A stretch of 64,000 nt of DNA from Escherichia coli (GCF_013122565.1 NZ_CP053258.1), one strand, 5' to 3'. Shown: positions 11,051-48,474, numbered from the stretch's first letter. Numbers and translations: made by a program. Notes: generated by a model not told the origin, from the letters alone.

Positions 11051-11718
11051 ATGCTGGATAAGGCACCAATTATTAAAGTGCCTCAACCGAAGAATAAACG
11101 GATCCGCTGGCTGGAACCTCATGAAGCACAAAGGCTGATTGATGAATGTCCGGATCCATTAAAGTCTGTTGTTGAATTTGCACTGGCAACAGGTTTAAGA
11201 CGCTCGAACATCATCAACCTTGAATGGCAACAAATAGACATGCAGCGCCGGGTGGCCTGGATAAACCCGGAAGAGAGTAAATCAAACTGCGCGATTTGCG
11301 TTGCGCTGAATGATACTGCATGTCGAGTATTGAAAAAACAAATCGGGAATCACACCGTTGGGTATTTGTGTAAAAGGAAAGCTGTACAAAACCAGACGGA
11401 ACGAAAGCGCCAACAGTCAGGAAGATGCAGTATGACGCAAACACAGCCAGGAAAACGGCGCTGAGACGAGCTGGTATTGATGATTTCAGATTTCACGACT
11501 TGAGACACACCTGGGCAAGTTGGCTGGTTCAAGCCGGAGTCCCGTTGTCAGTGTTACAGGAAATGGGAGGCTGGGAGTCTATCGAAATGGTTCGACAATA
11601 TGCTCACCTCGCACCTAATCACCTTACCGAACACGCACGGCAAATAGACTCGATCCTAAACCCATCGGTCCCAAATTTGTCCCAGTCAAAAAATAAGGAA
11701 GGTACTAACGATGTGTAA
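11051..11718 (+). pseudogene. Tyrosine-recombinase (phage integrase) remnant: catalytic C-terminal half only, with a frameshift near 11425-11464
   Basis: Two overlapping frames (11051..11464 and 11425..11718) together give an integrase catalytic domain ([19 protein letters not shown]...; [39 protein letters not shown]); N-terminal ~200 aa absent; ends 15 bp from the tRNA 3' end in convergent orientation. Confidence 0.7.
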
Positions 11719-11732
11719 CTTATTGATTTAAA

Positions 11733-11808
11733 TGGTGCCGATAAGAGGAGTCGAACCTCCGACCTTCGCATTACGAATGCGCTGCTCTACCAACTGAGCT
11801 ATATCGGC
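11733..11808 (-). tRNA. thrW: tRNA-Thr (anticodon CGU)
   Basis: Minus-strand sequence GCCGATATAGCTCAGTTGGTAGAGCAGCGCATTCGTAATGCGAAGGTCGGAGGTTCGACTCCTCTTATCGGCACCA folds as a canonical cloverleaf with CGT anticodon and CCA end. Confidence 0.95.
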
Positions 11809-11922
11809 CCTGAAAGGACATGTTCACGAACGTGAATCACGGTGGACAAGGTTAAAACTAACCGGGCGATGCGTCAATGGCCTTGTGAATCAAATGGCTA
11901 CTTTTGCATCACCCGGTTTTAT

Positions 11923-13176
11923 TTACGCACGAATGGTGTAATCACCAATGCCGATCCACTTGTAAGTGGTCAGTGCTTCCAGCCCCATTGGGCCACGCGC
12001 GTGGAGTTTTTGTGTGCTTACCGCCACTTCCGCACCCAGACCAAACTGGCCGCCGTCGGTAAAACGCGTAGAGGCGTTAACGTAAACAGCGGACGAATCC
12101 ACTTCGTTAACAAAACGCTGGGCGTTGCGCATATCGCGGGTCAGGATCGCATCGGAGTGTTGTGTGCCGTGTTCACGAATATGGGCGATGGCATCGTCAA
12201 GATCGCTGACGATTTTGACGTTCAAATCTAATGACAGAAACTCATCGTCATACTCTTCGGCTTTAACCGCCACCACCTTCGCGGGGCCTGTCTGCAACTG
12301 CGCCAGCGCAGCAGCATCTGCGTGTAACGTCACGCCGCTTTCCGCCATTTGCTTGCTTAATGCGGGCAGGAAGCTATCGGCGATGTTTTTATTTACCAGC
12401 AACGTTTCTACCGTATTACATGTGCTCGGACGCTGAGTTTTCGCGTTGACGATCACTTTTAATGCTTCAGCGATCTCTGCACTTTCATCAACGTAAATAT
12501 GGCATACGCCTATACCACCAGTGATCACCGGGATTGTCGACTGTTCGCGGCACAGTTTATGCAAACCAGCGCCACCACGCGGGATCAGCATGTCGATGTA
12601 TTTATCCATACGCAGCATTTCACTGACCAGCGCACGGTCAGGATTATCAATCGCCTGCACGGCACCCGCCGGTAAGCCACAGGATTTCAGGGCGTCCTGA
12701 ATCACCGCCACCGTTGCCGCGTTAGTGCGACAGGTTTCTTTGCCACCACGCAGGATCACCGCATTACCGGTTTTCAGGCACAGCGAAGCGACATCAACCG
12801 TCACGTTCGGGCGCGCTTCATAAATCACGCCAATAACCCCCAGCGGTACGCGACGACGCTCAAGACGCAGGCCGCTGTCCAGTACGCCGCCATCGATTAC
12901 CTGCCCCACCGGATCGGCGAGATTGCACACCTGGCGCACATCGTCGGCAATGCCTTTCAGCCGTGCGGGCGTCAGTGCCAGACGGTCAAGCATCGCTTCG
13001 CTAAGGCCATTGGCACGCGCGTCAGCAACATCCTGGGCGTTAGCGTTGAGGATGATTTCGCTTTGTGCTTCCAGTTCATCGGCGATTTTTTCCAGCACGC
13101 GATTTTTTTCGCGGCTGGAGAGTTGCGCTAATTTATACGAGGCTTGCTTCGCGGCAATGCCCATTTGTTCCAGCAT
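11923..13176 (-). CDS. proA: Gamma-glutamyl phosphate reductase
   Basis: 417 aa full-length match to ProA by recollection ([38 protein letters not shown]...); 11-bp spacing from proB. Confidence 0.95.
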
Positions 13177-13187
13177 CAGCCTGCTCC

Positions 13188-14291
13188 TTAACGGGTAATC
13201 ATGTCATCACGGTGAACGGCAACCGGGCCGTATTCATATCCCAGTATTGCATCAATTTCTTGCGAGTGGTGTCCGGCAATACGGCGTAATGCATCGCTGT
13301 TGTAACGACTGACGCCGTGAGCGATATCGCGACCTTCGAGGTTGCAAATGCGGATGACTTCACCACGCGAGAAATTGCCAGTCACGCTTTTAATGCCTTT
13401 CGGCAACAGGGAGCTGCCGCGTTCAAGAATGGCGGCAGTTGCCCCTTCATCTACCGTGATTTCACCCGCCGGCGGCGCACCGAAAATCCAGCGTTTACGG
13501 TTTTCAAGCGGAGTCGCCTGGGCATGGAACAACGTACCGACGGAAATGCCTTCCATCACATCACCAATAACGCCCGGCTTGCTGCCCGCGGCAATAATGG
13601 TGTCGATACCCGCACGGCAAGCCACGTCTGCGGCCTGCAATTTGGTACTCATGCCGCCAGTTCCGAGGCCTGAAACGCTGTCACCGGCAATCGCGCGCAG
13701 TGCGTCATCAATGCCGTAAACATCTTTAATCAGTTCTGCCTGCGGATTGCTGCGCGGGTCAGCGGTATACAAACCTTTTTGATCGGTCAGCAGCAACAGT
13801 TTATCGGCACCCGCCAGAATCGCCGCCAGCGCAGAAAGGTTATCGTTATCGCCGACCTTAATCTCTGCCGTAGCGACAGCATCGTTCTCATTGATTACCG
13901 GAACGATATTGTTATCGAGCAACGCTCGCAGGGTGTCGCGGGCGTTCAGGAAGCGTTCACGGTCTTCCATATCAGCACGGGTCAGCAGCATCTGCCCGAC
14001 GTGAATGCCATAAATCGAAAACAGCTGTTCCCACAGTTGAATCAGTCGACTCTGCCCTACCGCCGCCAGCAGTTGTTTCGAGGCGATAGTCGCTGGCAGT
14101 TCCGGGTAACCCAGGTGCTCACGTCCGGCGGCGATCGCGCCCGACGTCACAATAACAATCCGATGCCCGGCGGCATGTAACTGCGCGCACTGGCGAACAA
14201 GTTCAACGATATGGGCACGGTTCAGGCGGCGCGATCCGCCTGTTAGCACACTGGTGCCGAGTTTTACCACCAGCGTCTGGCTGTCACTCAT
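13188..14291 (-). CDS. proB: Glutamate 5-kinase
   Basis: 367 aa starting [19 protein letters not shown]; the ORF-track start (14378) is an upstream in-frame extension. Confidence 0.95.
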
Positions 14292-14479
14292 GATTCTCTG
14301 CCATTCAATTTTAGGAAAAATGATATCAAACGAACGTTTTAGCAGGACTGTCGTCGGTTGCCAACCATCTGCGAGCAAAGCATGGCGTTTTGTTGCGCGG
14401 GATCAGCAAGCGTAGCGGCAGTTGTTTACGCTTTTATTACAGATTTAATAAATTACCACATTTTCAGAATATTATTAAT

Positions 14480-14498
14480 CTGTAATATATCTTTAACA
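14480..14498 (+). promoter_or_regulatory. Pho box (PhoB binding site) upstream of phoE
   Basis: CTGTAATATATCTTTAACA matches the CTGTCATA-type direct-repeat Pho box about 80 bp upstream of the phoE start. Confidence 0.6.
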
Positions 14499-14578
14499 AT
14501 CTCAGGTTAAAAACTTTCCTGTTTTCAACGGGACTCTCCCGCTGAATATTCGCGCGTTAATTAAAATCAGGAATGAAA

Positions 14579-15634
14579 ATGAAAAAGAGCACTCTGGCAT
14601 TAGTGGTGATGGGCATTGTGGCATCTGCATCCATACAGGCCGCAGAAATATATAACAAAGATGGTAATAAACTGGATGTCTATGGCAAAGTTAAAGCCAT
14701 GCATTATATGAGTGATAATGACAGTAAAGATGGCGACCAGAGTTATATCCGTTTTGGTTTTAAAGGTGAAACACAAATTAACGATCAACTGACTGGTTAT
14801 GGTAGGTGGGAAGCAGAGTTTGCCGGTAATAAAGCGGAGAGTGATACTGCACAGCAAAAAACACGTCTCGCTTTTGCCGGATTGAAATATAAAGATTTGG
14901 GTTCTTTCGATTATGGTCGTAACCTGGGCGCGTTGTATGACGTGGAAGCCTGGACCGATATGTTCCCGGAATTTGGTGGCGACTCCTCCGCACAGACCGA
15001 CAACTTTATGACCAAACGCGCCAGCGGTCTGGCGACGTATCGGAACACCGACTTCTTCGGCGTTATCGATGGCCTGAACTTAACCCTGCAATATCAAGGG
15101 AAAAACGAAAACCGCGACGTTAAAAAGCAAAACGGCGATGGCTTCGGCACGTCATTGACATATGACTTTGGCGGCAGCGATTTCGCCATTAGTGGGGCCT
15201 ATACCAACTCAGATCGCACCAACGAGCAGAACCTGCAAAGCCGTGGCACAGGCAAGCGTGCAGAAGCATGGGCAACAGGTCTGAAATACGATGCCAATAA
15301 TATTTATCTGGCAACTTTCTATTCTGAAACACGCAAAATGACGCCAATAACTGGCGGCTTTGCCAATAAGACACAGAACTTTGAAGCGGTCGCTCAATAC
15401 CAGTTTGACTTTGGTCTGCGTCCATCGCTGGGTTATGTCTTATCGAAAGGGAAAGATATTGAAGGTATCGGTGATGAAGATCTGGTCAATTATATCGATG
15501 TTGGTGCTACGTATTATTTCAACAAAAATATGTCAGCCTTTGTTGATTATAAAATCAACCAACTGGATAGCGATAACAAATTGAATATTAATAATGATGA
15601 TATTGTCGCGGTTGGCATGACCTATCAGTTTTAA
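14579..15634 (+). CDS. phoE: Phosphate-starvation-inducible outer membrane porin PhoE
   Basis: 351 aa with signal peptide [21 protein letters not shown] and porin C-terminal ...VGMTYQF. Confidence 0.95.
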
Positions 15635-15642
15635 TGGATATT

Positions 15643-15663
15643 GCCGGATGTGATGCATCCGGC
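15643..15663. terminator. Hairpin between convergent phoE and crl (likely bidirectional terminator)
   Basis: GCCGGATG-tgatg-CATCCGGC inverted repeat immediately after the phoE stop. Confidence 0.45.
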
Positions 15664-15672
15664 ACATTTCAC

Positions 15673-16131
<459 letters not shown>

Positions 16132-34347: not shown

Positions 34348-34449
34348 GTGGGTGTTGTGTTTAAGGCCGGGGAAGACTACGAAAGCCCCTAACTTAAACA
34401 CAATATTACGCCAGAAGTCACCATTTCCAAAACACAGCGCCGCTGTACC

Positions 34450-34683
34450 GTGGGTTATCTGCCCAACCGCAGCGACACGCCGGTGATCAAAATCAGCGCC
34501 AAATGGCTGAGAGAAGCGGGATTTGCGATCGGCACGGGCGTTACCGTGAGGATCTCGGAAGGCTGCCTGATCCTGCTTGCGGATAACAACGAAGTACAGG
34601 AACTGCGCAGGGAACTTTATCAGGTTAAACAGTCAGTTAAGGGGATGCGTGACGGGATGTTTAGTGTGCTGAACGAGAGTTAA
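34450..34683 (+). CDS. SymE-like (AbrB/SpoVT-fold) toxin-family protein, short form (77 aa, GTG start); possibly an N-terminally shortened remnant
   Basis: PVIKISAKWLREAGFAIGTGVTVRISEGCLILLADN resembles the core of K-12 SymE ([34 protein letters not shown], from memory); followed by an imperfect hairpin at 34690-34725. Confidence 0.5.
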   Translation: MGYLPNRSDTPVIKISAKWLREAGFAIGTGVTVRISEGCLILLADNNEVQELRRELYQVKQSVKGMRDGMFSVLNES

Positions 34684-34729
34684 ATAATAAAAAGCCGGGA
34701 AGATTTTATTTCCTACCCGGCTTTTAACA

Positions 34730-35179
34730 TTAATGCTTCAAGGGGAATGACTTCATCAGTAATTCTTCTAAAGAAGAATATAAAAATTCCATTTCATAAG
34801 AGTCATGCAGAAAAACAAATATCTTACCATCTGTATTCATAAGAATAGGGTTTCCGCAGCCATCATCTGAAATAGCATAAAATGAATTCAATATATTTTT
34901 ATCAAGATCTTTATATATTTCCCTAAACTTCAGAGTAAGATCAACTACAGAAGCCTTTCCTACTAAGGAACCATTTTTAAAGGCATGTATAGCTATGCCA
35001 CCAAAGGCCCCACCAAATTTCTTAATAAACTCAATATATTGTATATTGAATTTAATATTTAATATTTTTTCAGCCTGAATGATCTCCTCATCAGAAGCTG
35101 GTATACCATATAGGACCATATCTTGGTCAGATGTTATCTCATCTCTGACTCTTGCTAGCAATTCTTCATTCATACGCAA
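34730..35179 (-). CDS. Predicted immunity protein for orphan toxin 4 (SMI1/KNR4, SUKH-like)
   Basis: 149 aa, AT-rich, directly downstream of an rhs C-terminal toxin module; IQYIEFIKKFGGAFGG motif typical of SUKH immunity proteins. Confidence 0.6.
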   Translation of the reverse strand: MRMNEELLARVRDEITSDQDMVLYGIPASDEEIIQAEKILNIKFNIQYIEFIKKFGGAFGGIAIHAFKNGSLVGKASVVDLTLKFREIYKDLDKNILNSFYAISDDGCGNPILMNTDGKIFVFLHDSYEMEFLYSSLEELLMKSFPLKH

Positions 35180-36297
35180 CCGCCCCCTCTATTGCTTAAA
35201 ACTTTTTCAGCTTGTGATTTCCAGAATTCTTTTTTCCACAGGTTAAATTCTTGACGATTATTTATACCTGAACCTTTTTTATTTCCATTTGGGTGCTGAC
35301 CAGCGTTATTTGTACTTGAACCATGATGTTTATCTGGCATAGCAGTAATTGGCCCTTGTGATTGCTGCCTGTCATGGTGCAATACTATTACATTCCCTTG
35401 CCTATCGCTCGGAGATAAACCAAATGGATGAGGAGCATCATCACTGTTCATAAAAATAATTCTATTAAGCTCGGAATCACTTAAGTGACTTAAATCCGTG
35501 TAACCTGATACATCTAAAGTTAATCCTCTGCTATCAGTAAAAGTAACAGTTAAACCCAGAGGATCGATCCAACTTATTGGATTAGGCGCATATTGGTATA
35601 AGTTTATCCCACCCGCCAGCCCTATCGGGTCCTGACTGATAAACCTCCCGCACTCCGGCGCATAATACCTGAACAGATTGTAATGCAGTCCCGTCTCTTC
35701 ATCATAATACTGCCCCGGCAGCCGCAGCGGTTGCTCAAAGTACGCCCCGCTGTTGCTGATGTCGCCCCGGTTTTCACCAAATCCCGCCTGATAGCCCGCC
35801 CACACCAGCGTCCCGTCCGCCGCGGTCACCTCCTGTACCGTGCCCGTCAGGTCCGTGTGGTAATACCAGATTTTTTGACTCTCTCCGCGCCCGGTGATGG
35901 CGGCCACCGGCGTGTACGGCTGTTCCGCGTCGTACAGGTATGTCCGCTTTCCCTGCCACGTTGTCTCCTGCAACAGCCGGAACCCTTCCCACACAAACGT
36001 TGTCCGGCTTCGTTCTCCCCGGTCGGTATGGAGATTGCTGGTCGCCTTGCTGATGCGCCTGCCCAGCGCATCATACTGATACCGCGTCTCGCTGTTGCTG
36101 CTGATGACCCGCGTTAACTGACCCTGCGCGTTCCACTCCAGCTGTTGGTCCCTGCGCTCTGTCAGTTCGCCCCATTCGTTATAGCGGTAACGGTCACGCC
36201 CGTAGCCCGGCAGGCGGTTATCCGGCACCGCTCCCTGATGCTCATCCGTCAGCAGGTTGCCCGCTTTGTCGTAATAATAATGGTCATGGTCGTACAT
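35170..36297 (-). CDS. Orphan rhs C-terminal toxin module 4: 5'-truncated Rhs core (to DPLGL) plus LHH/HNH-like nuclease-type tip
   Basis: Rhs core homology from about 36345 down to the DPxGL motif, then a divergent ~125-aa tip containing VIVLHHDRQ...KHHG...N...H (HNH/LHH-like). Confidence 0.65.
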   Translation of the reverse strand: MYDHDHYYYDKAGNLLTDEHQGAVPDNRLPGYGRDRYRYNEWGELTERRDQQLEWNAQGQLTRVISSNSETRYQYDALGRRISKATSNLHTDRGERSRTTFVWEGFRLLQETTWQGKRTYLYDAEQPYTPVAAITGRGESQKIWYYHTDLTGTVQEVTAADGTLVWAGYQAGFGENRGDISNSGAYFEQPLRLPGQYYDEETGLHYNLFRYYAPECGRFISQDPIGLAGGINLYQYAPNPISWIDPLGLTVTFTDSRGLTLDVSGYTDLSHLSDSELNRIIFMNSDDAPHPFGLSPSDRQGNVIVLHHDRQQSQGPITAMPDKHHGSSTNNAGQHPNGNKKGSGINNRQEFNLWKKEFWKSQAEKVLSNRGGGCV

Positions 36298-36376
36298 CTG
36301 CCCCGTGCGACTGGTCAGCCAGCCGCTGCGATCATACGCAAAATGCCCCCATCCGCATGCAAGCAGTATTTATCCT

Positions 36377-36682
36377 TTAGGAAAAGAGATTTATAGCTTT
36401 CTCTTGAAGTTCTATACCTATATCCTCAAGTTTGATCAGCTCGTCCTTACTGTACATTCCCTCCCGAAAAGAAAACATTCCATATACATCCATTAGTGCC
36501 AATCCTAAAACTTTTGGAACCATAATTTCATCAGCATATATTTCCGCCAAAAAATCCAGCGCCTTATATAATTCTTCAATTTCATTATCAAAAAAATCTT
36601 TCTTGAGTCTTAATCTAACAGGTATTGAATCATCTCCTAATAATTTATCGACCACTATTTTCAATGCAATCTCTTTATCCAT
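36377..36682 (-). CDS. Predicted immunity protein for orphan toxin 3
   Basis: 101 aa, AT-rich, immediately downstream of orphan module 3. Confidence 0.55.
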   Translation of the reverse strand: MDKEIALKIVVDKLLGDDSIPVRLRLKKDFFDNEIEELYKALDFLAEIYADEIMVPKVLGLALMDVYGMFSFREGMYSKDELIKLEDIGIELQEKAINLFS

Positions 36683-36698
36683 ATATCATTTCCTGTCT

Positions 36699-38315
36699 TT
36701 AACAAGATCTAATAGCATTTGATGGGACATGGCCTTCCACAAGTACTTCTCCAGAACTAACTGCATAGTTACGGGCTGGTCCTTTTAATCCAGCATCCGT
36801 TGCTTTCTCTACCGTGGATAAGTCAATAATATTCCGATTACCTTTAACATCAGGAATAACATCGTCAGTATCAAATGTAACTGTAGTTTGGCCTGGTTCA
36901 CGGTATCGTACTGCTACATATTCATTTACGGTAGTTGAAATGAATTGTGAGCCTTTAAACGAATCATTACTACCATTTCTAACATGACCAGCAGCGCTCA
37001 TTCCTCGCCCCGGGTTCTTTGCAGATAGCCCCTCACTAATAGATTCATCCGCACGAATATTTCGAAATACCTTGATTAAGCCAAGAGGATCAATCCAGCT
37101 AATCGGATTCGGCGCATACCTGTAAAGATTCAGACCGCCACGGATCGAAATCGGATCCTGACTGATAAACCTCCCGCACTCCGGCGCATAATACCTGAAC
37201 AGATTGTAATGCAGCCCCGTCTCTTCATCATAATACTGCCCCGGCAGCCGCAGTGGTTGCTCAAAGTACGCCCCGCTGTTGCTGATGTCGCCCCGGTTTT
37301 CGCCAAATCCCGCCTGGTAGCCCGCCCACACCAGCGTCCCGTCCGGCGCGGTCACCTCCTGTACCGTGCCCGTCAGGTCCGTGTGGTAATACCAGATTTT
37401 TTGACTCTCTCCGCGCCCCGTGATGGCTGCCACCGGCGTGTACGGCTGTTCCGCGTCGTACAGGTATGTCCGCTTCCCCTGCCACGTTGTCTCCTGTAAC
37501 AGCCGGAACCCTTCCCACACAAACGTCGTCTGCCGCTGTTCCCTCTGGTCCGTATGGCGGCCATATGTCGCCTTGCTGATGCGCCTGCCCAGCGCATCAT
37601 ACTGATACCGCGTCTCGCTGTTGCTGCTGATGACCCGCGTTAACTGGCCCTGCGCGTTCCACTCCAGTTGCTGGTCCCTGCGCTCTGTCAGTTCGCCCCA
37701 TTCGTTATAGCGGTAGCGGTCACGCCCGTAGCCCGGCAGGCGGTTATCCGGCACCGCTCCCTGATGCTCATCCGTCAGCAGATTGCCCGCTTTGTCGTAA
37801 TAATAATGGTCATGGTCGTACATCTGACCCGTGCGACTGGTCAGCCAGCCGCTGCGGTCATAGCTGAACACCAGGCAACCGCGCAGTTTGTCATTGATGC
37901 CGCCGACTTCACCGTCTGCGTTCCAGATATAATCCCGCGCTGTCACGCTGTCTTTCTGCGCCGGGGGGTTACCGGCCTGCTGCGGATTCTGGCTGCCGCC
38001 TGGCAGGCTGCGCTGCCAGCTTAACCGGTTATCGGCGTTGTAGCCGCTGAACGTCGCCAGTTTCCCCTGGGTGCGCATCACCTGACGGTGCAGGCTGTCA
38101 CGCTCATATTCACTGACCGTGATACCGTCCAGTGCCGTCTGGAGCAGATGCCCGCTGCCGTAGTAAAGATGGCTGAGATGCTGCCCGTCCGGCAGGGTAA
38201 TGCCGGTGGGATTGCCCAGCGCGTCACGCTGATATTTTATGCTGCCGTGCACGCTGTGCTCTGCCGTCAGCCAGCCGCTGCGGTCATACGCAAAACGCAC
38301 CGTGTCCGCCTGCAA
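36699..38315 (-). CDS. Orphan rhs C-terminal toxin module 3: 5'-truncated Rhs core plus unique ~125-aa tip (possible ADP-ribosyltransferase-like R/STT motifs)
   Basis: Starts inside the rhs core ([17 protein letters not shown]...), ends DPLGL + IKVFRNIRADESISEGL...GSQFISTTVNEY.... Confidence 0.65.
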   Translation of the reverse strand: MQADTVRFAYDRSGWLTAEHSVHGSIKYQRDALGNPTGITLPDGQHLSHLYYGSGHLLQTALDGITVSEYERDSLHRQVMRTQGKLATFSGYNADNRLSWQRSLPGGSQNPQQAGNPPAQKDSVTARDYIWNADGEVGGINDKLRGCLVFSYDRSGWLTSRTGQMYDHDHYYYDKAGNLLTDEHQGAVPDNRLPGYGRDRYRYNEWGELTERRDQQLEWNAQGQLTRVISSNSETRYQYDALGRRISKATYGRHTDQREQRQTTFVWEGFRLLQETTWQGKRTYLYDAEQPYTPVAAITGRGESQKIWYYHTDLTGTVQEVTAPDGTLVWAGYQAGFGENRGDISNSGAYFEQPLRLPGQYYDEETGLHYNLFRYYAPECGRFISQDPISIRGGLNLYRYAPNPISWIDPLGLIKVFRNIRADESISEGLSAKNPGRGMSAAGHVRNGSNDSFKGSQFISTTVNEYVAVRYREPGQTTVTFDTDDVIPDVKGNRNIIDLSTVEKATDAGLKGPARNYAVSSGEVLVEGHVPSNAIRSC

Positions 38316-38488: not shown

Positions 38489-39340
38489 TTATTTATTTTT
38501 AATTAAATTCATTAAATCCCAAACATTGCTATCATAATGATTGAAACCTTGAATCACAAGATAAGACAATGCTTTCATATCCAACAAAAATCTGATTTTC
38601 CCGTCTATAATTTTTGTATTTTCCGTTATAAACAATCGTTCCAATTTAACAAGATTACTTATTTTAGCTACGCTTGGAATATCACCCATTTTTGAAAAAG
38701 ATATTTTTTTAATTGAAGGTAATTTACTTACATCTTCAATGATTGACACTGCCATTTTTTTGCATAAAGATAAAGACACTTCTTCTATATTTTTCAAACC
38801 ATCTAAAAAAGTCGTGTCCGAAGCCTTAGATAATCCAGATAACTTGATGCTCCTTAAAGTCTTGATAGATGATAAATTAGGGATTGTTTGAATATTGCTA
38901 TTTTTTATCTCTAATGATTGCAAGAATGATCTCCCCGCAACATGCTCTTTTTTTTCTTTAAAATCTATCAATGTTATTTTTTCCAGAGTTCTGTGATTAA
39001 ACAAATTATCAATTCCATTTCGACCTATTAATACAGCCTCTTTTAAAAATGGGAAATATGATAAATCAAGTCTCATTTTATCATCATTCAAAAGATGGAT
39101 GAGTTGTATTTTTTTCAACGAATACAGTTGTGATATATCCTTTATTTTATTGCCTGTGATATATATTTCATTAATGAAATTAATTTCATCAAGAAATGAT
39201 AAATCAGTTATAAGCGGTGACAAAACCAACCCGTTAACTTTCTTTTCCTTCATCGTGTCAACAATATGACTTGTATCGTCATGCTTTTCATACACAAGGA
39301 CACGACTTCCCCGTACACCATAATTTTCCACTAGTCTCAT
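38489..39340 (-). CDS. Leucine-rich-repeat protein (283 aa), positioned as the immunity gene of orphan toxin 2
   Basis: AT-rich; repeated L..L..L.L..N.I LRR-like units (LSFLDEINFINEIYITGNKIKDISQLYSLKKIQLIHLLND..., IQTIPNLSSIKTLRSIKLSGL); 20 bp downstream of orphan module 2. Confidence 0.55.
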   Translation of the reverse strand: MRLVENYGVRGSRVLVYEKHDDTSHIVDTMKEKKVNGLVLSPLITDLSFLDEINFINEIYITGNKIKDISQLYSLKKIQLIHLLNDDKMRLDLSYFPFLKEAVLIGRNGIDNLFNHRTLEKITLIDFKEKKEHVAGRSFLQSLEIKNSNIQTIPNLSSIKTLRSIKLSGLSKASDTTFLDGLKNIEEVSLSLCKKMAVSIIEDVSKLPSIKKISFSKMGDIPSVAKISNLVKLERLFITENTKIIDGKIRFLLDMKALSYLVIQGFNHYDSNVWDLMNLIKNK

Positions 39341-39359: not shown

Positions 39360-40820
39360 TCAACACTCCCCCTTCACTCTAAAATCTTGATCTGAAACAT
39401 TTCCTGTATTTGGTGGTCGTTTTTCATTACTGGTTACTCCTCTTCCTCCATTTTTAGCTATTTTCATTGCCTCTAAATTATTTAGCCATTGTTTACTAAT
39501 TCCAGCATATTTATCAAAATTCAACGAATCCAACATTGCCTGAGTTAACTTTCCACTTCGGGCATGTTGCAACATTCTCTGATATAGATTTTTTGTTTGA
39601 CCTGCATACATTTTACCCGCACCTTCATCAAAAAACTCATAAATTGCTTGCCCTTTATATTTTGCAGTAACATCTCTTATTTGTTCTAAAAAATCACTAG
39701 CGAGTCTTACTAATCCCCAAGGATCAATCCACCTCAGCGGATTCGGCGCATACCTGTAAAGATTCAGCCCACCCCGGATCGAAATCGGGTCCTGGCTTAT
39801 GAACCTTCCGCACTCCGGCGCATAATACCTGAACAGATTGTAATGCAGCCCCGTCTCTTCATCATAATACTGCCCCGGCAGCCGCAGCGGTTGCTCAAAG
39901 TACGCCCCGCTGTTGCTGATGTCGCCCCGATTTTCTCCAAATCCCGCCTGGTAGCCCGCCCACACCAGCCTCCCGTCCGGCGCGGTCACCTCCTGTACCG
40001 TGCCCGTCAGGTCCGTGTGGTAATACCAGATTTTTTGACTCTCTCCGCGCCCGGTGATGGCCGCCACTGGCGTGTACGGCTGTTCCGCGTCGTACAGGTA
40101 TGTCCGCTTTCCCTGCCACGTTGTCTCCTGCAACAGCCGGAACCCTTCCCACACAAACGTCGTCCGCCGCTGTTCCCTCTGGACCGTATGGCGGCCATAT
40201 GTCGCCTTGCTGATGCGCCTGCCCAGCGCATCATACTGATACCGCGTCTCGCTGTTGCTGCTGATGACCCGCGTTAACTGGCCCTGCGCGTTCCACTCCA
40301 GTTGCTGGTCCCTGCGCTCTGTCAGTTCGCCCCATTCGTTATAGCGGTAACGGTCACGCCCGTAGCCCGGCAGGCGGTTATCCATCACCGCGCTCTGATA
40401 CTCGTCCGTCAGCAGATTGCCCGCTTTGTCGTAATAATAATGGTCATGGTCGTACATCTGCCCCGTGCGGCTGGTCAGCCAGCCGCTGCGGTCATACGCA
40501 AAGCGCACCGTGTCCGCCTGCATGTGGTGCAGCCGTTCCCCTTCTTTCGTCGGGGTGAGCGTCACTTCCGTTATCTGGTCAAGACGGTTGTAGCTGAAGG
40601 TCCGTGTACTGTGCTGCGTGTCACTGCGCAACAGGCGGCCCAGCGCATCACGCTCCTGCCGCTCATTACGCCCCCCGCCTTCTGTACCCTGCGTCTGGAT
40701 GATGACCGGATACCCGCCCGCATTCAGCGCCAAATGGCTGAGAGAAGCGGGATTTGAGATCGGCACGGGCGTTACCGTGAAGATCTCGGAGGGATGTCTG
40801 ATCCTGCTTGCGGATAACAA
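39360..40820 (-). CDS. Orphan rhs C-terminal toxin module 2: 5'-truncated Rhs core with an internal deletion, plus GIY-YIG nuclease-like tip
   Basis: Core homology starts at ...[14 protein letters not shown] (40727); lacks ~130 codons between the two YDRSGWLT repeats; after DPWGL the tip reads AIYEFFDEGAGKMYAGQTKNLYQRMLQH (GIY...YIG...R...H pattern). Confidence 0.65.
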   Translation of the reverse strand: MLSASRIRHPSEIFTVTPVPISNPASLSHLALNAGGYPVIIQTQGTEGGGRNERQERDALGRLLRSDTQHSTRTFSYNRLDQITEVTLTPTKEGERLHHMQADTVRFAYDRSGWLTSRTGQMYDHDHYYYDKAGNLLTDEYQSAVMDNRLPGYGRDRYRYNEWGELTERRDQQLEWNAQGQLTRVISSNSETRYQYDALGRRISKATYGRHTVQREQRRTTFVWEGFRLLQETTWQGKRTYLYDAEQPYTPVAAITGRGESQKIWYYHTDLTGTVQEVTAPDGRLVWAGYQAGFGENRGDISNSGAYFEQPLRLPGQYYDEETGLHYNLFRYYAPECGRFISQDPISIRGGLNLYRYAPNPLRWIDPWGLVRLASDFLEQIRDVTAKYKGQAIYEFFDEGAGKMYAGQTKNLYQRMLQHARSGKLTQAMLDSLNFDKYAGISKQWLNNLEAMKIAKNGGRGVTSNEKRPPNTGNVSDQDFRVKGEC

Positions 40821-40975: not shown

Positions 40976-41464
40976 TTAATCATAAGCATCGCCGTAATTT
41001 TCATATTTCCAATAAATATATTTACCACCTGAGCTATATAATTTATGCAATAATTCTGTAAAAGTCATTGCAATAATTGGACAACTACCTACAACGCCAT
41101 GTATCTCATAATTGCTATCATAACAGCGTCCATTTCTTTCTGTAGAAAAATCAATGGATAAATAATCATTATTATCGGTCCTGCAAATTAAGTACCATGA
41201 AGATGATATATCATCCTCACATGGCTCACCAACTATAAATTTATTTGCCTGTAATATTTCATTATTTTTCAAAATAGTGAAGGAGATTTCCTGCTCTTCA
41301 GAGCAAAACAATTTTATTCCATTACATATTTTGTAAAAACGAACAACATCATCAGGATATTTTAAATAATCAGATGGTAATAAAGGCAAATTACCATCTG
41401 GTGGAATAACTTCACATCTGTTATCATTTTTTATCAAGTCAAGTAATTCATCAATGCCATTCAT
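40976..41464 (-). CDS. Predicted immunity protein for orphan toxin 1
   Basis: 162 aa, AT-rich, immediately downstream of orphan module 1. Confidence 0.55.
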   Translation of the reverse strand: MNGIDELLDLIKNDNRCEVIPPDGNLPLLPSDYLKYPDDVVRFYKICNGIKLFCSEEQEISFTILKNNEILQANKFIVGEPCEDDISSSWYLICRTDNNDYLSIDFSTERNGRCYDSNYEIHGVVGSCPIIAMTFTELLHKLYSSGGKYIYWKYENYGDAYD

Positions 41465-41473
41465 ATTACCACC

Positions 41474-43312
41474 TTAAAAAATAACAGTATCAAACTTCCC
41501 AGAGTATATAAACTGGTTCAATGCCCGGTAATATGCTTCCCTACTGGCAACAGGAACATTTGCGGCATCAAACATTCGTTCAGTAAGATCTTTCATTTCT
41601 CTGCTACTTACTGTTGTCCAATCCACTTTCCCACCAACTCTTCTTCCGGTTTTCTGCTCTAACCAATCTCTATATACTTTTTTTGTTGCAGCATGATTAG
41701 CCTCGGATAATGCAATTGTTGGTGACTTTGAAGGATATTTCCCTCCATAAGATGGCACATTCTTAGACATCCAAATATCAAGCACACCATGATGGTTTTC
41801 TAAAGAGGAATTAATTGGTCGATAAGGAACAACATCAAACTCTTTAACTTCACCGCACTTAAGTCCAAGGGGATCTATCCACCCCAGCGGATTCGGCGCA
41901 TAAGCATACTGGTTCAGCCCACCCGCCAGCCCTATCGGGTCCTGGCTTACGAACCGCCCGCACTCCGGCGCATAATACCTGAACAGATTATAGTGCAGCC
42001 CCGTCTCTTCATCATAATACTGCCCCGGCAGCCGCAGCGGCTGTTCAAAGTACGCCCCGCTGTTGCTGATATCGCCCCGGTTTTCGCCAAATCCCGCCTG
42101 GTAGCCCGCCCACACCAGCGTCCCGTCCGCCGCGGTCACCTCCTGTACCGTGCCCGTCAGGTCCGTGTGGTAATACCAGATTTTTTGACTCTCTCCGCGC
42201 CCCGTGATGGCGGCCACCGGCGTGTACGGCTGTTCCGCGTCGTACAGGTATGTCCGCTTTCCCTGCCACGTTGTCTCCTGCAACAGCCGGAACCCTTCCC
42301 ACACAAACGTTGTCCGGCTTCGTTCTCCCCGGTCCGTATGGCGGCCATATGTCGCCTTGCTGATGCGCCTGCCCAGCGCATCATACTGATACCGCGTCTC
42401 GCTGTTGCTGCTGATGACCCGCGTTAACTGGCCCTGCGCGTTCCACTCCAGCTGCTGGTCCCTGCGCTCTGTCAGTTCGCCCCATTCGTTATAGCGGTAG
42501 CGGTCACGCCCGTAGCCCGGCAGGCGGTTATCCATCACCGCTCCCTGATATTCATCCGTCAGCAGGTTGCCCGCTTTATCGTAATAATAATGGTCATGGT
42601 CATACATCTGCCCCGTGCGGCTGGTCAGCCAGCCGCTGCGGTCATAGCTGAACACCAGGCAACCGCGCAGTTTGTCATTGATGCCGCCGACTTCACCGTC
42701 TGCGTTCCAGATATAGTCCCGCGCTGTCACGCTGTCGCTGTGTGACGGGGGTGTGGCTGTCTGCTGTGGGTTCTGGCTGCCGCCTGGCAGGCTGCGCTGC
42801 CAGCTTAACCGGTTGTCGGCGTTGTAGCCGCTGAACGTCGCCAGTTTCCCCTGGGTGCGCATCACCTGACGGTGCAGACTGTCACGCTCATATTCACTGA
42901 CCGTGATACCGTCCAGTGCCGTCTGGAGCAGATGTCCGCTGCCGTAGTAAAGATGGCTGAGGTGCTGCCCGTTCGGTAACGTGATGTCGGTGGGATTGCC
43001 CAGCGCGTCACGCTGATATTTTATGCTGCCGTGCACGCTGTGCTCTGCCGTCAGCCACCCGCTGCGGTCATACGCAAAGCGCACCGTGTCCGCCTGCATG
43101 TGGTGCAGCCGTTCCCCTTCTTTCGTCGGGGTGAGCGTCACTTCCGTTATCTGGTCAAGACGGTTGTAGCTGAAGGTCCGTGTACTGTGCTGCGTGTCAC
43201 TGCGCAACAGGCGGCCCAGCGCATCACGCTCCTGTCGCTCATTACGCACCCCGCCTTCTGTACCCTGCGTCTGGATGATGACCGGATACCCGCCCGCATT
43301 CAGCACAAACAT
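41474..43312 (-). CDS. Orphan rhs C-terminal toxin module 1: 5'-truncated Rhs core (~1.6 kb retained, homology up to ~43468) plus unique ~130-aa tip
   Basis: Core identical in register to the main rhs from ...[12 protein letters not shown] to DPLGL; tip KCGEVKEFDVVPYRPINSSLENHHGVLDIWMSK... (possible xHH nuclease-like motif, weak). Confidence 0.65.
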   Translation of the reverse strand: MFVLNAGGYPVIIQTQGTEGGVRNERQERDALGRLLRSDTQHSTRTFSYNRLDQITEVTLTPTKEGERLHHMQADTVRFAYDRSGWLTAEHSVHGSIKYQRDALGNPTDITLPNGQHLSHLYYGSGHLLQTALDGITVSEYERDSLHRQVMRTQGKLATFSGYNADNRLSWQRSLPGGSQNPQQTATPPSHSDSVTARDYIWNADGEVGGINDKLRGCLVFSYDRSGWLTSRTGQMYDHDHYYYDKAGNLLTDEYQGAVMDNRLPGYGRDRYRYNEWGELTERRDQQLEWNAQGQLTRVISSNSETRYQYDALGRRISKATYGRHTDRGERSRTTFVWEGFRLLQETTWQGKRTYLYDAEQPYTPVAAITGRGESQKIWYYHTDLTGTVQEVTAADGTLVWAGYQAGFGENRGDISNSGAYFEQPLRLPGQYYDEETGLHYNLFRYYAPECGRFVSQDPIGLAGGLNQYAYAPNPLGWIDPLGLKCGEVKEFDVVPYRPINSSLENHHGVLDIWMSKNVPSYGGKYPSKSPTIALSEANHAATKKVYRDWLEQKTGRRVGGKVDWTTVSSREMKDLTERMFDAANVPVASREAYYRALNQFIYSGKFDTVIF

Positions 43313-43517: not shown

Positions 43518-48474
<4,957 letters not shown>

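What the first reader, a model, noticed from the sequence alone, without database searches (positions are those of the whole stretch)
35170..35560. LHH/HNH-like nuclease motif in the tip of orphan Rhs toxin 4, paired with a SUKH-like immunity gene
The tip contains VIVLHHDRQQSQGPITAMPDKHHG...N...H, resembling HNH-superfamily toxins of the LHH type; the downstream 149-aa ORF has the SMI1/KNR4 (SUKH) motif IQYIEFIKKFGGAFGG, a family known to neutralise nuclease toxins.
Basis: partly seen in the sequence, partly recalled or inferred. Interest (0 to 1): 0.45.

Follow-up and report, generated by a model that had tools for sequence, protein, structure and literature searches.

The report
Orphan Rhs nuclease toxin with immunity
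This is an ordinary, already-annotated spare toxin cassette behind an E. coli type VI secretion Rhs gene: a C-terminal LHH-family (HNH-type) nuclease tip followed by its SUKH-family immunity gene.

Summary
On the minus strand, ORF 35170..36297 is a 5'-truncated Rhs fragment. It ends in the [12 protein letters not shown] cleavage motif, followed by a 126-aa tip (35173-35550). The tip matches Pfam LHH PF14411 (E 6e-9, nearly the whole model). It keeps every near-invariant residue seen across 139 homologues: L57, H58, H59, Q62, H76, H86, R99 and W110. The next gene (34730..35173) overlaps the toxin stop as ATGA and matches SMI1_KNR4/SUKH (E 2e-15). Relatives elsewhere show the same Rhs-LHH then SUKH order. 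RefSeq already calls the 99.9% identical copy in E. coli PapRG-06-5 "HNH/ENDO VII family nuclease" plus "SMI1/KNR4 family protein". The LHH-SUKH pairing is the founding observation of Zhang et al. 2011.

There are three caveats:
- The fold was not confirmed. A confident AlphaFold model (pLDDT 90) found no nuclease in three PDB fold searches.
- The substrate is open. The only assayed LHH toxin, YobL, acted as an RNase in E. coli but caused DNA loss in B. subtilis.
- The query sits in a sub-clade that lacks the family's signature Glu.

The cassette is rare (4 of 5426 complete E. coli genomes) and under purifying selection (dN/dS 0.07 and 0.10). Interest is low.

The parts
35551..36361 (-). 5'-truncated Rhs core fragment of orphan 4. 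The first ATG of the open frame is at 36297, and homology to Rhs cores starts at about 36361 with ...[10 protein letters not shown]. There is no PAAR domain and no N-terminal YD shell.
   Evidence: It is 91-93% identical over 782-812 bp to the equivalent 3' core segment of the main rhs gene (44255-45043) and of orphans 1-3. It matches NCBIfam RHS_core at model positions 1154-1261 and Rhs_assc_core, and Pfam RHS and RHS_repeat. The in-frame upstream stop is shown.
35551..35586 (-). [12 protein letters not shown], the PxxxxDPxGL motif that ends the Rhs core. In characterised Rhs proteins this is the autoproteolytic boundary that releases the tip (established knowledge, not tested here).
   Evidence: The motif is located. 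The DNA homology among all five Rhs copies ends here.
35173..35550 (-). Toxin tip of 126 aa (ORF aa 250-375), with its stop codon at 35170-35172. It has an N-terminal beta-beta-alpha sub-domain (tip residues 1-41) plus the LHH nuclease domain.
   Evidence: 160 representative clusters match at E<=1e-3. The AlphaFold model has pLDDT 89.6 and pTM 0.85. dN/dS is 0.07 against the JNE120442 allele.
35206..35421 (-). The stretch matched by Pfam LHH PF14411 (ORF aa 293-364).
   Evidence: E 6.1e-9, score 36.4, model positions 9-75 of 76. Nearly all homologues found with the family profile carry PF14411 in the precomputed annotation.
35374..35382 (-). The L57-H58-H59 triad (ORF aa 306-308). H58 is the predicted metal ligand and H59 the predicted general base.
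   Evidence: L is conserved at 91%, H58 at 99% and H59 at 98% across 139 homologues. The roles are taken from Zhang et al. 2011 (PMC3113570). The HH dyads align in register with colicin E7 ELHH in hhalign, but weakly (P 0.0021).
35293..35328 (-). H75-H76 (35323-35328) through N82 to H86 (35293-35295). H76 and H86 are the two further conserved histidines, predicted to be metal ligands. H75 is specific to the sub-clade.
   Evidence: H76 is conserved at 94%, N82 at 83% and H86 at 99%. H75 occurs in 13 of 18 sub-clade members against 1 of 121 in the main clade.
34730..35173 (-). SUKH (SMI1/KNR4) immunity gene of 147 aa counted from ATG 35173 (149 aa from the TTG at 35179). Its ATG overlaps the toxin stop as ATGA, and a GAGGGGG Shine-Dalgarno-like run lies inside the toxin's last codons.
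   Evidence: It matches SMI1_KNR4 at 2e-15 (model 1-124 of 125), SUKH_5 at 9e-13 and SUKH_6 at 3e-12. The overlap and the upstream sequence are shown. The same gene order is seen in L002, L003 and L004. dN/dS is 0.10.
34684..34725 (-). Hairpin followed by a U-run directly after the immunity stop. It is a likely intrinsic terminator, shared with the convergent symE-like gene.
   Evidence: The RNA fold gives -19.3 kcal/mol, z -5.1, with 0 of 200 shuffles folding as well. The consensus scan missed it, apparently because of how its stem and loop are arranged, though I did not check this against the scan's criteria.

Best explanation
This is a silent 'orphan' Rhs toxin/immunity cassette, the last of four behind a T6SS-linked PAAR-Rhs gene. 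It encodes an LHH-family (HNH/EndoVII, His-Me finger superfamily) metal-dependent nuclease tip and its cognate SUKH immunity protein.

Shown here:
- family membership of both proteins;
- integrity of all near-invariant residues;
- translational coupling through the ATGA overlap;
- purifying selection on both genes;
- truncation of the delivery part;
- about 790 bp of 92% identical core shared with the main rhs gene.

Inferred:
- As it stands, the fragment cannot be delivered, because it lacks PAAR and the shell.
- The immunity protein, if transcribed by read-through or a weak promoter, protects against neighbours that fire this toxin.
- RecA-dependent recombination between the shared core segments can graft the LHH tip onto the full-length Rhs. 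The tip would then be loaded on VgrG with the DcrB-like chaperone, cleaved after DPLGL, injected, and would kill by cutting nucleic acid.
- In the active site, H59 would act as general base and H58, H76 and H86 would hold the metal.
- The SUKH protein would neutralise the toxin by direct binding.
For: Pfam finds LHH at E 6.1e-9 plus RHS and RHS_repeat, and SMI1_KNR4, SUKH_5 and SUKH_6 at 2e-15 to 3e-12. PGAP gives the same names to the 99.9% identical copy and to three 82% identical copies. The tip keeps G44, L57, H58, H59, Q62, G66, H76, H86, P87, R99 and W110, all conserved at >=90% in 139 homologues. Rhs-LHH followed at once by a SUKH gene recurs in unrelated contigs L003 and L004. dN/dS is 0.07 for the toxin and 0.10 for the immunity gene at dS of about 0.9-1.0. 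The context is tssM, VgrG, a DcrB-related protein and a full-length PAAR-Rhs, then four fragments. Core identity to the main rhs is 92% over 789 bp, with a 72-bp exact run. From the literature: the LHH-SUKH link (PMC3113570); Tox-LHH listed with T6SS, RHS and Imm-SUKH (PMC3482391); N. cinerea Rhs-LHH Nte3, toxic in E. coli and rescued by Nti3 (PMC8263058); and orphan Rhs activation by recombination in Salmonella (PMC3967940).
Confidence: 0.8

Rival explanations
1. The architecture is the same, but the tip kills mainly as an RNase (rRNA cleavage) rather than a DNase.
For: The only biochemically examined PF14411 toxin, B. subtilis YobL-CT, is listed as an rRNase that cleaves rRNA in vivo when expressed in E. 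coli (review PMC9990079; PMC6562991).
Against: Induction of YobL in B. subtilis caused chromosomal DNA loss and anucleate cells, and the authors concluded it acts as a DNase there (PMC8321402). Most His-Me finger toxins are DNases (PMC9990079). The query is only 25-45% identical to main-clade LHH domains, so neither result transfers safely.
Confidence: 0.2
2. The orphan works in place as an internal type II toxin-antitoxin-like module. A short toxin would be made from an internal promoter and start codon without delivery, and would be held in check by the SUKH protein.
For: Salmonella main and orphan rhs genes express toxic C-terminal products from internal promoters and behave as TA modules (PMC7043789). 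PGAP calls a stand-alone 92-93-aa CDS starting at the internal Met (MNSDD/MNGDD...) in the other E. coli copies, and a 92-aa K. aerogenes protein has the same extent. Purifying selection acts on the toxin even though both compared copies are orphans.
Against: No promoter-like site above the shuffled expectation was found. On my reading of the sequence, the bases just upstream of that internal Met are AT-rich with no Shine-Dalgarno-like run, though I did not run a specific test. The 93-aa product would lack the conserved N-terminal sub-domain present in about 130 of 139 homologues. The short CDS calls are explained more simply as the way PGAP handles fragmented genes.
Confidence: 0.1
3. The toxin half is an evolutionary leftover that is never used. 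Only the immunity gene matters, as an orphan immunity against foreign LHH toxins.
For: The delivery part is truncated. There is no detectable promoter. The cassette is rare, in 4 of 5426 complete E. coli genomes. In L002 only about 55 aa of Rhs core remain. Orphan immunity genes are known to protect against non-self effectors (abstract of PMC10539506).
Against: The toxin reading frame is intact and keeps every conserved residue. Its dN/dS of 0.07 is as low as that of the immunity gene, which is not what a neutral relic would show. The core segment still shares a 72-bp exact run with the main rhs gene, so recombination remains feasible.
Confidence: 0.15
4. The LHH domain is not a His-Me finger nuclease at all, and the histidines serve some other chemistry or fold.
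For: Three fold searches with confident models returned no nuclease. hhalign against colicin DNase gives probabilities of only 5-13%. No LHH structure or in vitro enzymology is available in the libraries searched.
Against: Zhang et al. 2011 and Jablonska et al. 2017 independently place LHH in the HNH/His-Me superfamily by profile-profile methods. The predicted element order is beta54-59, beta68-72, then a short helix, with HH at the end of strand 1 as in HNH proteins. The HH dyads align in register with colicin ELHH. YobL expression degrades nucleic acids in vivo. A 30-residue beta-beta-alpha motif is below what global fold search can detect.
Confidence: 0.05

Closest known systems
Tox-LHH / Pfam PF14411 toxins with Imm-SUKH immunity (Zhang, Iyer & Aravind 2011, PMC3113570; Zhang et al. 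2012, PMC3482391)
   Same: The tip gives a significant PF14411 match. The LHH triad, two downstream histidines and a Trp are conserved. The domain sits at the C-terminal tip of an RHS polymorphic toxin, and a SUKH gene lies immediately downstream.
   Different: The family-signature Glu in strand 2 is Ala. The query belongs to a minority sub-clade (18 of 139 representatives) in which E70, N75, Y109 and R113 are replaced together by A/G, H, F and Q.
Neisseria cinerea Nte3/Nti3 (Rhs effector with Tox-LHH; PMC8263058)
   Same: It is an Rhs protein with a PF14411 tip in a T6SS context, and its toxicity in the E. coli cytoplasm is relieved by the adjacent immunity gene.
   Different: Nte3 has a long Rhs domain (695-735 aa) and is treated as a deliverable effector, whereas the window copy is a truncated orphan. 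Sequence relatedness to Nte3 was not measured here. The paper does not state which family Nti3 belongs to.
Bacillus subtilis YobL-CT/YobK (LXG, T7SS toxin; PF14411 according to PMC9990079)
   Same: It has the same toxin family, a small immunity protein encoded downstream, and bicistronic expression.
   Different: It is delivered by T7SS through an LXG domain rather than by T6SS and Rhs. It is the only member with activity data, and those data conflict: rRNase in E. coli against DNA loss in B. subtilis.
Orphan Rhs-CT/immunity modules (Poole et al. 2011, PMC3150448; Koskiniemi et al. 2014, PMC3967940)
   Same: It is a 5'-truncated rhs fragment downstream of a main rhs gene. It retains the conserved core end, a distinct low-G+C tip and an immunity gene. 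It is homologous enough to the main gene to recombine with it.
   Different: It belongs to an array of four orphans rather than being a single one. Recombination was not observed here.
Colicin/pyocin DNase domains (PF21431; colicins E2, E7, E8 and E9)
   Same: They share an ELHH/VLHH strand with the HH dyads in register, and a FxxFRKxFW-like helix. Both are toxin nucleases with dedicated immunity proteins.
   Different: The similarity is weak (probability 5-13%), and the two segments occur in opposite order along the chain. Colicin immunity proteins are not SUKH. There is no HxxxH helix in LHH; the histidines are 10 residues apart.

Membership tests
Tox-LHH (Pfam PF14411, His-Me finger clan) | Significant match to the family profile over most of its length | tested here: met
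   E 6.1e-9, 36.4 bits, model positions 9-75 of 76. Nearly all homologues recovered with the family alignment carry PF14411.
Tox-LHH (Pfam PF14411, His-Me finger clan) | Signature residues LHH, H, H and W (Zhang 2012 lists 'N, LHH, E, H, H, W') | tested here: met
   L57, H58, H59, H76, H86 and W110 (plus W105) are present. Each is conserved at >=88% in 139 homologues. I could not map the leading 'N' to a single column.
Tox-LHH (Pfam PF14411, His-Me finger clan) | Signature Glu in the second strand (IIEMP) | tested here: not met
   The query has Ala (ITAMP). Glu is present in 121 of 139 homologues. The 18 exceptions form the query's own sub-clade and also change N75 to H, Y109 to F and R113 to Q. 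This may reflect one lineage event rather than independent covariation.
Tox-LHH (Pfam PF14411, His-Me finger clan) | HNH/EndoVII (beta-beta-alpha-metal) fold | tested here: inconclusive
Tox-LHH (Pfam PF14411, His-Me finger clan) | Metal-dependent nuclease activity abolished by mutating the HH dyad | not testable with these tools
   This needs expression and enzymology. The literature data on YobL conflict over the substrate.
Tox-LHH (Pfam PF14411, His-Me finger clan) | C-terminal position in a polymorphic toxin, after a pre-toxin or processing motif | tested here: met
   The tip starts directly after [12 protein letters not shown] at the end of the Rhs core.
Imm-SUKH (SMI1_KNR4 PF09346, SUKH_5, SUKH_6) | Full-length match to SUKH profiles | tested here: met
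   SMI1_KNR4 at 2e-15 (model 1-124 of 125), SUKH_5 at 9.2e-13 and SUKH_6 at 2.7e-12. There is no close solved structure by sequence.
Imm-SUKH (SMI1_KNR4 PF09346, SUKH_5, SUKH_6) | Encoded immediately downstream of the toxin on the same strand, with the linkage conserved in relatives | tested here: met
   The ATGA overlap is at 35170-35173. The same order is seen in L002, L003 and L004, and the immunity proteins are 37-81% identical.
Imm-SUKH (SMI1_KNR4 PF09346, SUKH_5, SUKH_6) | Specific binding and neutralisation of the cognate toxin | not testable with these tools
   No complex prediction with interface scores was available, so this needs co-expression rescue and pull-down.
Orphan Rhs-CT/immunity module | Lacks the N-terminal delivery region but keeps the conserved 3' core, homologous to a full-length rhs upstream | tested here: met
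   Homology starts at about 36361. It is 92% identical over 789 bp to main rhs 44255-45043, with a 72-bp exact run. The main Rhs has PAAR and a full YD shell and lies next to VgrG.
Orphan Rhs-CT/immunity module | Can be activated by recombination with the main rhs gene | not testable with these tools
   This is inferred by analogy with Salmonella (PMC3967940). Junction PCR or long-read population sequencing is needed.

The most novel reading that the evidence does not exclude
The most novel reading not excluded is that this Glu-less LHH sub-clade (A70, H75, F109, Q113) is a rewired His-Me finger. It may have an altered metal site or substrate preference, possibly RNA. The LHH fold as a whole may be a circularly permuted relative of colicin DNases, since its C-terminal helix corresponds to the colicin N-terminal FxxFRKxFW helix. 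That would explain why a confident model has no structural neighbour in the PDB.
Probability: 0.12. Interest if true: 0.4.

Novelty: already known. Interest (0 to 1): 0.12.

Why it matters
It matters little beyond cataloguing. The result confirms that the raw-sequence reader identified a toxin family and its immunity partner correctly. It adds one more documented tip (LHH) to a five-tip E. coli T6SS Rhs array: deaminase-like, SHH, a weak GIY-YIG-like match, unknown, and LHH. The residual value lies at family level. LHH toxins still have no solved structure, and their substrate data conflict. A small, well-behaved 126-aa tip with a 147-aa immunity partner from E. coli would be a convenient pair for settling both questions.

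Tried and rejected
- **PDB sequence searches.** Searches with the tip and with its family profile gave only artefacts. The GFP fusion and LolA hits are non-significant. The 7rt7 RhsP2 hit aligns the LHH motif to a His-tag (HHHHHHSQDPAGP), so it was rejected.
- **hhalign against colicin DNase.** Comparisons of the LHH alignments with colicin E7 and with a 14-sequence colicin/pyocin DNase alignment gave only weak, non-collinear local matches. I recorded this as an idea, not as evidence.
- **Ntox47 (PF15540).** The weak hit at E 0.024 was rejected. It covers the shared Rhs end and DPxGL region, and it recurs on the main Rhs, whose tip is unrelated.
- **NCBIfam.** It has no model for either the tip or the immunity protein.
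- **Plasmids.** A protein search of the plasmid collection found no match.
- **Word-indexed protein search.** It found only 4 close relatives. The exhaustive representative search was needed to build the family alignment.
- **Promoter scan.** It found no enrichment over shuffled sequence.
- **Orphan 1 immunity candidate.** Comparison with the SUKH alignment showed no detectable similarity.
- **Holberger et al. 2012 (PMC3259279).** The paper is not held in the library, so YobL activity is cited second-hand from a review and two later papers.

Full report
**1. What is at the coordinates**

All features are on the minus strand. ORF 35170..36297 (375 aa) is an Rhs fragment. NCBIfam places it at positions 1154-1261 of the 1261-position RHS_core model and finds the Rhs-associated core domain. 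Pfam finds RHS, RHS_repeat and a piece of the YD shell.

At the DNA level, 35548-36336 is 91-93% identical to the equivalent 3' core segment of the full-length rhs gene (44255-45043) and of three other fragments. That homology stops at the DPLGL codons (35551-35565).

The 126 residues after DPLGL (35173-35550) are the tip. The quoted string VIVLHHDRQQSQGPITAMPDKHHG is there (LHH at 35374-35382). G+C falls from about 60% in the core to 30-40% in the tip and the next gene, as at the other four tips.

**2. Family of the tip**

Pfam gives LHH (PF14411, 'nuclease of the HNH/ENDO VII superfamily with conserved LHH') at E 6.1e-9, covering model positions 9-75 of 76.

- An exhaustive search of 1.84 billion representative proteins found 160 clusters at E<=1e-3.
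- In an alignment of 139 of them, the near-invariant positions are G44, L57, H58, H59, Q62, G66, H76, H86, P87, R99 and W110 (tip numbering). The query has all of them.
- A search with the family alignment returned proteins that almost all carry PF14411 and are named 'HNH/ENDO VII family nuclease' where a name exists.

Zhang et al. 2011 assign the first His of the HH dyad to metal binding and the second to water activation. They assign two later histidines to the remaining metal ligands (PMC3113570).

**3. Family of the downstream gene**

ORF 34730..35173 (147 aa from the ATG; 149 aa from the TTG the scanner lists) matches SMI1_KNR4 at 2e-15 over the whole model, plus SUKH_5 and SUKH_6.

- Its ATG overlaps the toxin stop as ATGA, and a GAGGGGG run lies just upstream. 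This is the usual arrangement for translational coupling.
- A strong hairpin with a U-run follows the stop codon (-19.3 kcal/mol, z -5.1).
- The protein is acidic (pI 4.8).

**4. Is the pairing conserved?**

Yes. A 742-aa Rhs-LHH protein (58% identical tip) and a 337-aa one (64%) are each followed directly by a SUKH gene. So are the three 82% identical E. coli copies. The four immunity proteins are 37-81% identical and share the FGG...SDDG.GN core.

Between the window and the JNE120442 allele, dN/dS is 0.07 for the tip and 0.10 for the immunity gene, at dS of about 0.9-1.0. Both have therefore been kept as working proteins, although both copies compared are orphans.

**5. Context and likely mode of action**

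The window carries, in order: a T6SS cluster (tssM, TagF-like genes, VgrG, a DcrB-related protein); a full-length PAAR-Rhs (43871..48010); four 5'-truncated Rhs fragments, each with its own tip and small downstream gene; a symE-like gene; and then yafV, ivy and fadE.

Orphan 4 has no PAAR, no shell and no promoter-like site above background, so by itself it cannot be delivered. It shares 789 bp at 92% identity with the main gene, including a 72-bp exact run.

By analogy with Salmonella, where such recombination switches on an orphan Rhs toxin (PMC3967940), I infer that it is a reserve tip that recombination can graft onto the main Rhs. Meanwhile the immunity gene may protect against neighbours. 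These steps are inference, and nothing here tests them.

**6. What did not confirm**

An AlphaFold model built on 59 sequences is confident (pLDDT 89.6, pTM 0.85). It shows strands 2-5 and 11-16, helix 25-34, strands 54-59 and 68-72, and helix 99-122. A core-only model adds a short helix at tip residues 79-85. The order strand, strand, short helix, with HH at the end of strand 1, fits a His-Me finger.

However:
- Foldseek against the PDB found nothing at E<1e-3.
- No LHH protein has a solved structure by sequence or profile search. The one apparent hit, 7rt7, is a His-tag artefact.

The catalytic motif is about 30 residues long, below what global comparison detects. I therefore score this test inconclusive, not failed. 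The superfamily assignment rests on Pfam and on two published profile-profile analyses.

My own hhalign against a colicin/pyocin DNase alignment gave only weak local matches:
- G.aP.d..G..IvLHH..Qn..GP against colicin G.aP......fELHH.kpIsq.G, with the HH dyads in register (P 0.0021, probability 13%).
- The LHH C-terminal helix R..FN.WR.eYW against the colicin N-terminal helix F.nFD.FRk.FWeE (P 0.0074).

The two segments lie in swapped order. This hints at a permuted relationship, but it is not evidence.

**7. Two further qualifications**

*A missing signature residue.* Zhang et al. 2012 list the Tox-LHH signature as 'N, LHH, E, H, H, W'. The Glu (IIEMP, 121 of 139 sequences) is Ala in the query (ITAMP). 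The 18 sequences without Glu are the query's closest relatives. They also change N75 to H (13 of 18 against 1 of 121), Y109 to F (14 of 18 against 1 of 121) and R113 to Q (12 of 18 against 0 of 121).

A joint replacement of Glu in strand 2 with Arg and Tyr in the C-terminal helix suggests a structural contact rather than a catalytic residue. It may still be a single lineage event, and I could not inspect the model's coordinates.

*The substrate.* The only LHH toxin with activity data, B. subtilis YobL, is listed as an rRNase when expressed in E. coli (PMC9990079). It caused chromosomal DNA loss and anucleate cells in B. subtilis (PMC8321402). N. cinerea Nte3, an Rhs-LHH effector, is toxic in E. 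coli and is rescued by its immunity gene, but its substrate was not determined. 'Nuclease' is safe; 'DNase' is not.

**8. Comparison with what is known, and novelty**

The LHH-SUKH association is the founding observation of the SUKH paper. It is repeated in the His-Me finger classification. Tox-LHH on RHS proteins delivered by T6SS is tabulated in Zhang et al. 2012.

RefSeq already names the 99.9% identical genes in E. coli PapRG-06-5, and the 82% identical genes in three other strains, 'HNH/ENDO VII family nuclease' and 'SMI1/KNR4 family protein'. The cassette is rare: 4 of 5426 complete E. coli genomes at megablast sensitivity, and none on plasmids.

Nothing about its architecture departs from the known kind, so I rate it already known and of low interest. 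The only open points are at family level: no structure, conflicting substrate data, and the Glu-less sub-clade.

Noticed in passing
window 34450-34683 (+); L001 15779-15934; L002 7664-7993 and 560-802: A symE-like gene (NCBIfam SymE, E 1.3e-10) converges on the SUKH gene and shares its terminator hairpin. symE-family genes sit in the same position next to this cassette in two other E. coli strains. DNA similarity to those loci runs through symE (window 34397-35697 against L002, and 34493-36336 against L001). The gene therefore seems to travel with Rhs orphan cassettes.
   Followed up: partly
window 43871-44800 (-), tip of the full-length Rhs: The currently deployed tip of the main PAAR-Rhs matches Pfam Deam_C (putative cytidine deaminase C-terminal domain) at E 9.4e-15. 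A 119-aa gene (43518..43877) lies downstream and has no family match.
   Followed up: partly
window 41474-43312 (-) and 40976-41464 (-): Orphan 1 carries a Tox-SHH tip (PF15652, E 1.9e-25), a second and different HNH/EndoVII-superfamily toxin in the same array. Its 162-aa downstream gene has no NCBIfam match and no detectable similarity to the SUKH alignment, although LKYPDDVVRFYKICNG looks SUKH-like by eye.
   Followed up: partly
window 39360-40820 (-) and 38489-39340 (-): The tip of orphan 2 has only a weak GIY-YIG match (E 1.3e-3). The gene in the immunity position encodes an unusually large (283 aa), very AT-rich, leucine-rich-repeat-like protein with weak internalin-type hits.
   Followed up: no
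window 36699-38315 (-) and 36377-36682 (-): The tip of orphan 3 (about 125 aa after DPLGL) has no significant family (DUF7587 at E 0.012), and its 101-aa downstream gene has none either. By eye the tip has an R...STT...E pattern reminiscent of ADP-ribosyltransferases. This was not tested.
   Followed up: no
window 36314-36362, compared with 38266-38315, 43050-43098 and 45447-45495: Orphans 3 and 4 begin with the same ~49-bp sequence encoding [10 protein letters not shown]. In orphan 4 this is joined directly to core sequence that lies about 450 bp further in within orphan 3, where a second YDRSGWLT repeat occurs. This looks like a deletion between two YD-repeat copies. Similarity to the longer PapRG-06-5 copy also ends at 36336.
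   Followed up: partly
tip residues 1-41 (window 35428-35550, -): A beta-beta-alpha sub-domain (consensus F.G.EVRAVRDLSHL....L..M) precedes the Pfam LHH region. It is conserved in about 130 of 139 homologues but is not covered by the PF14411 model. PGAP's 92-93-aa stand-alone 'nuclease' CDS calls in other strains start after it.
   Followed up: no
L001 (E. coli PapRG-06-5) 11701-15934: In the near-identical strain, the same yafV-side end of the array carries extra material that the window lacks: an ISEc1 (ISAs1-family) transposase and two further Rhs fragments. The distal end of the array therefore varies between close relatives.
   Followed up: no
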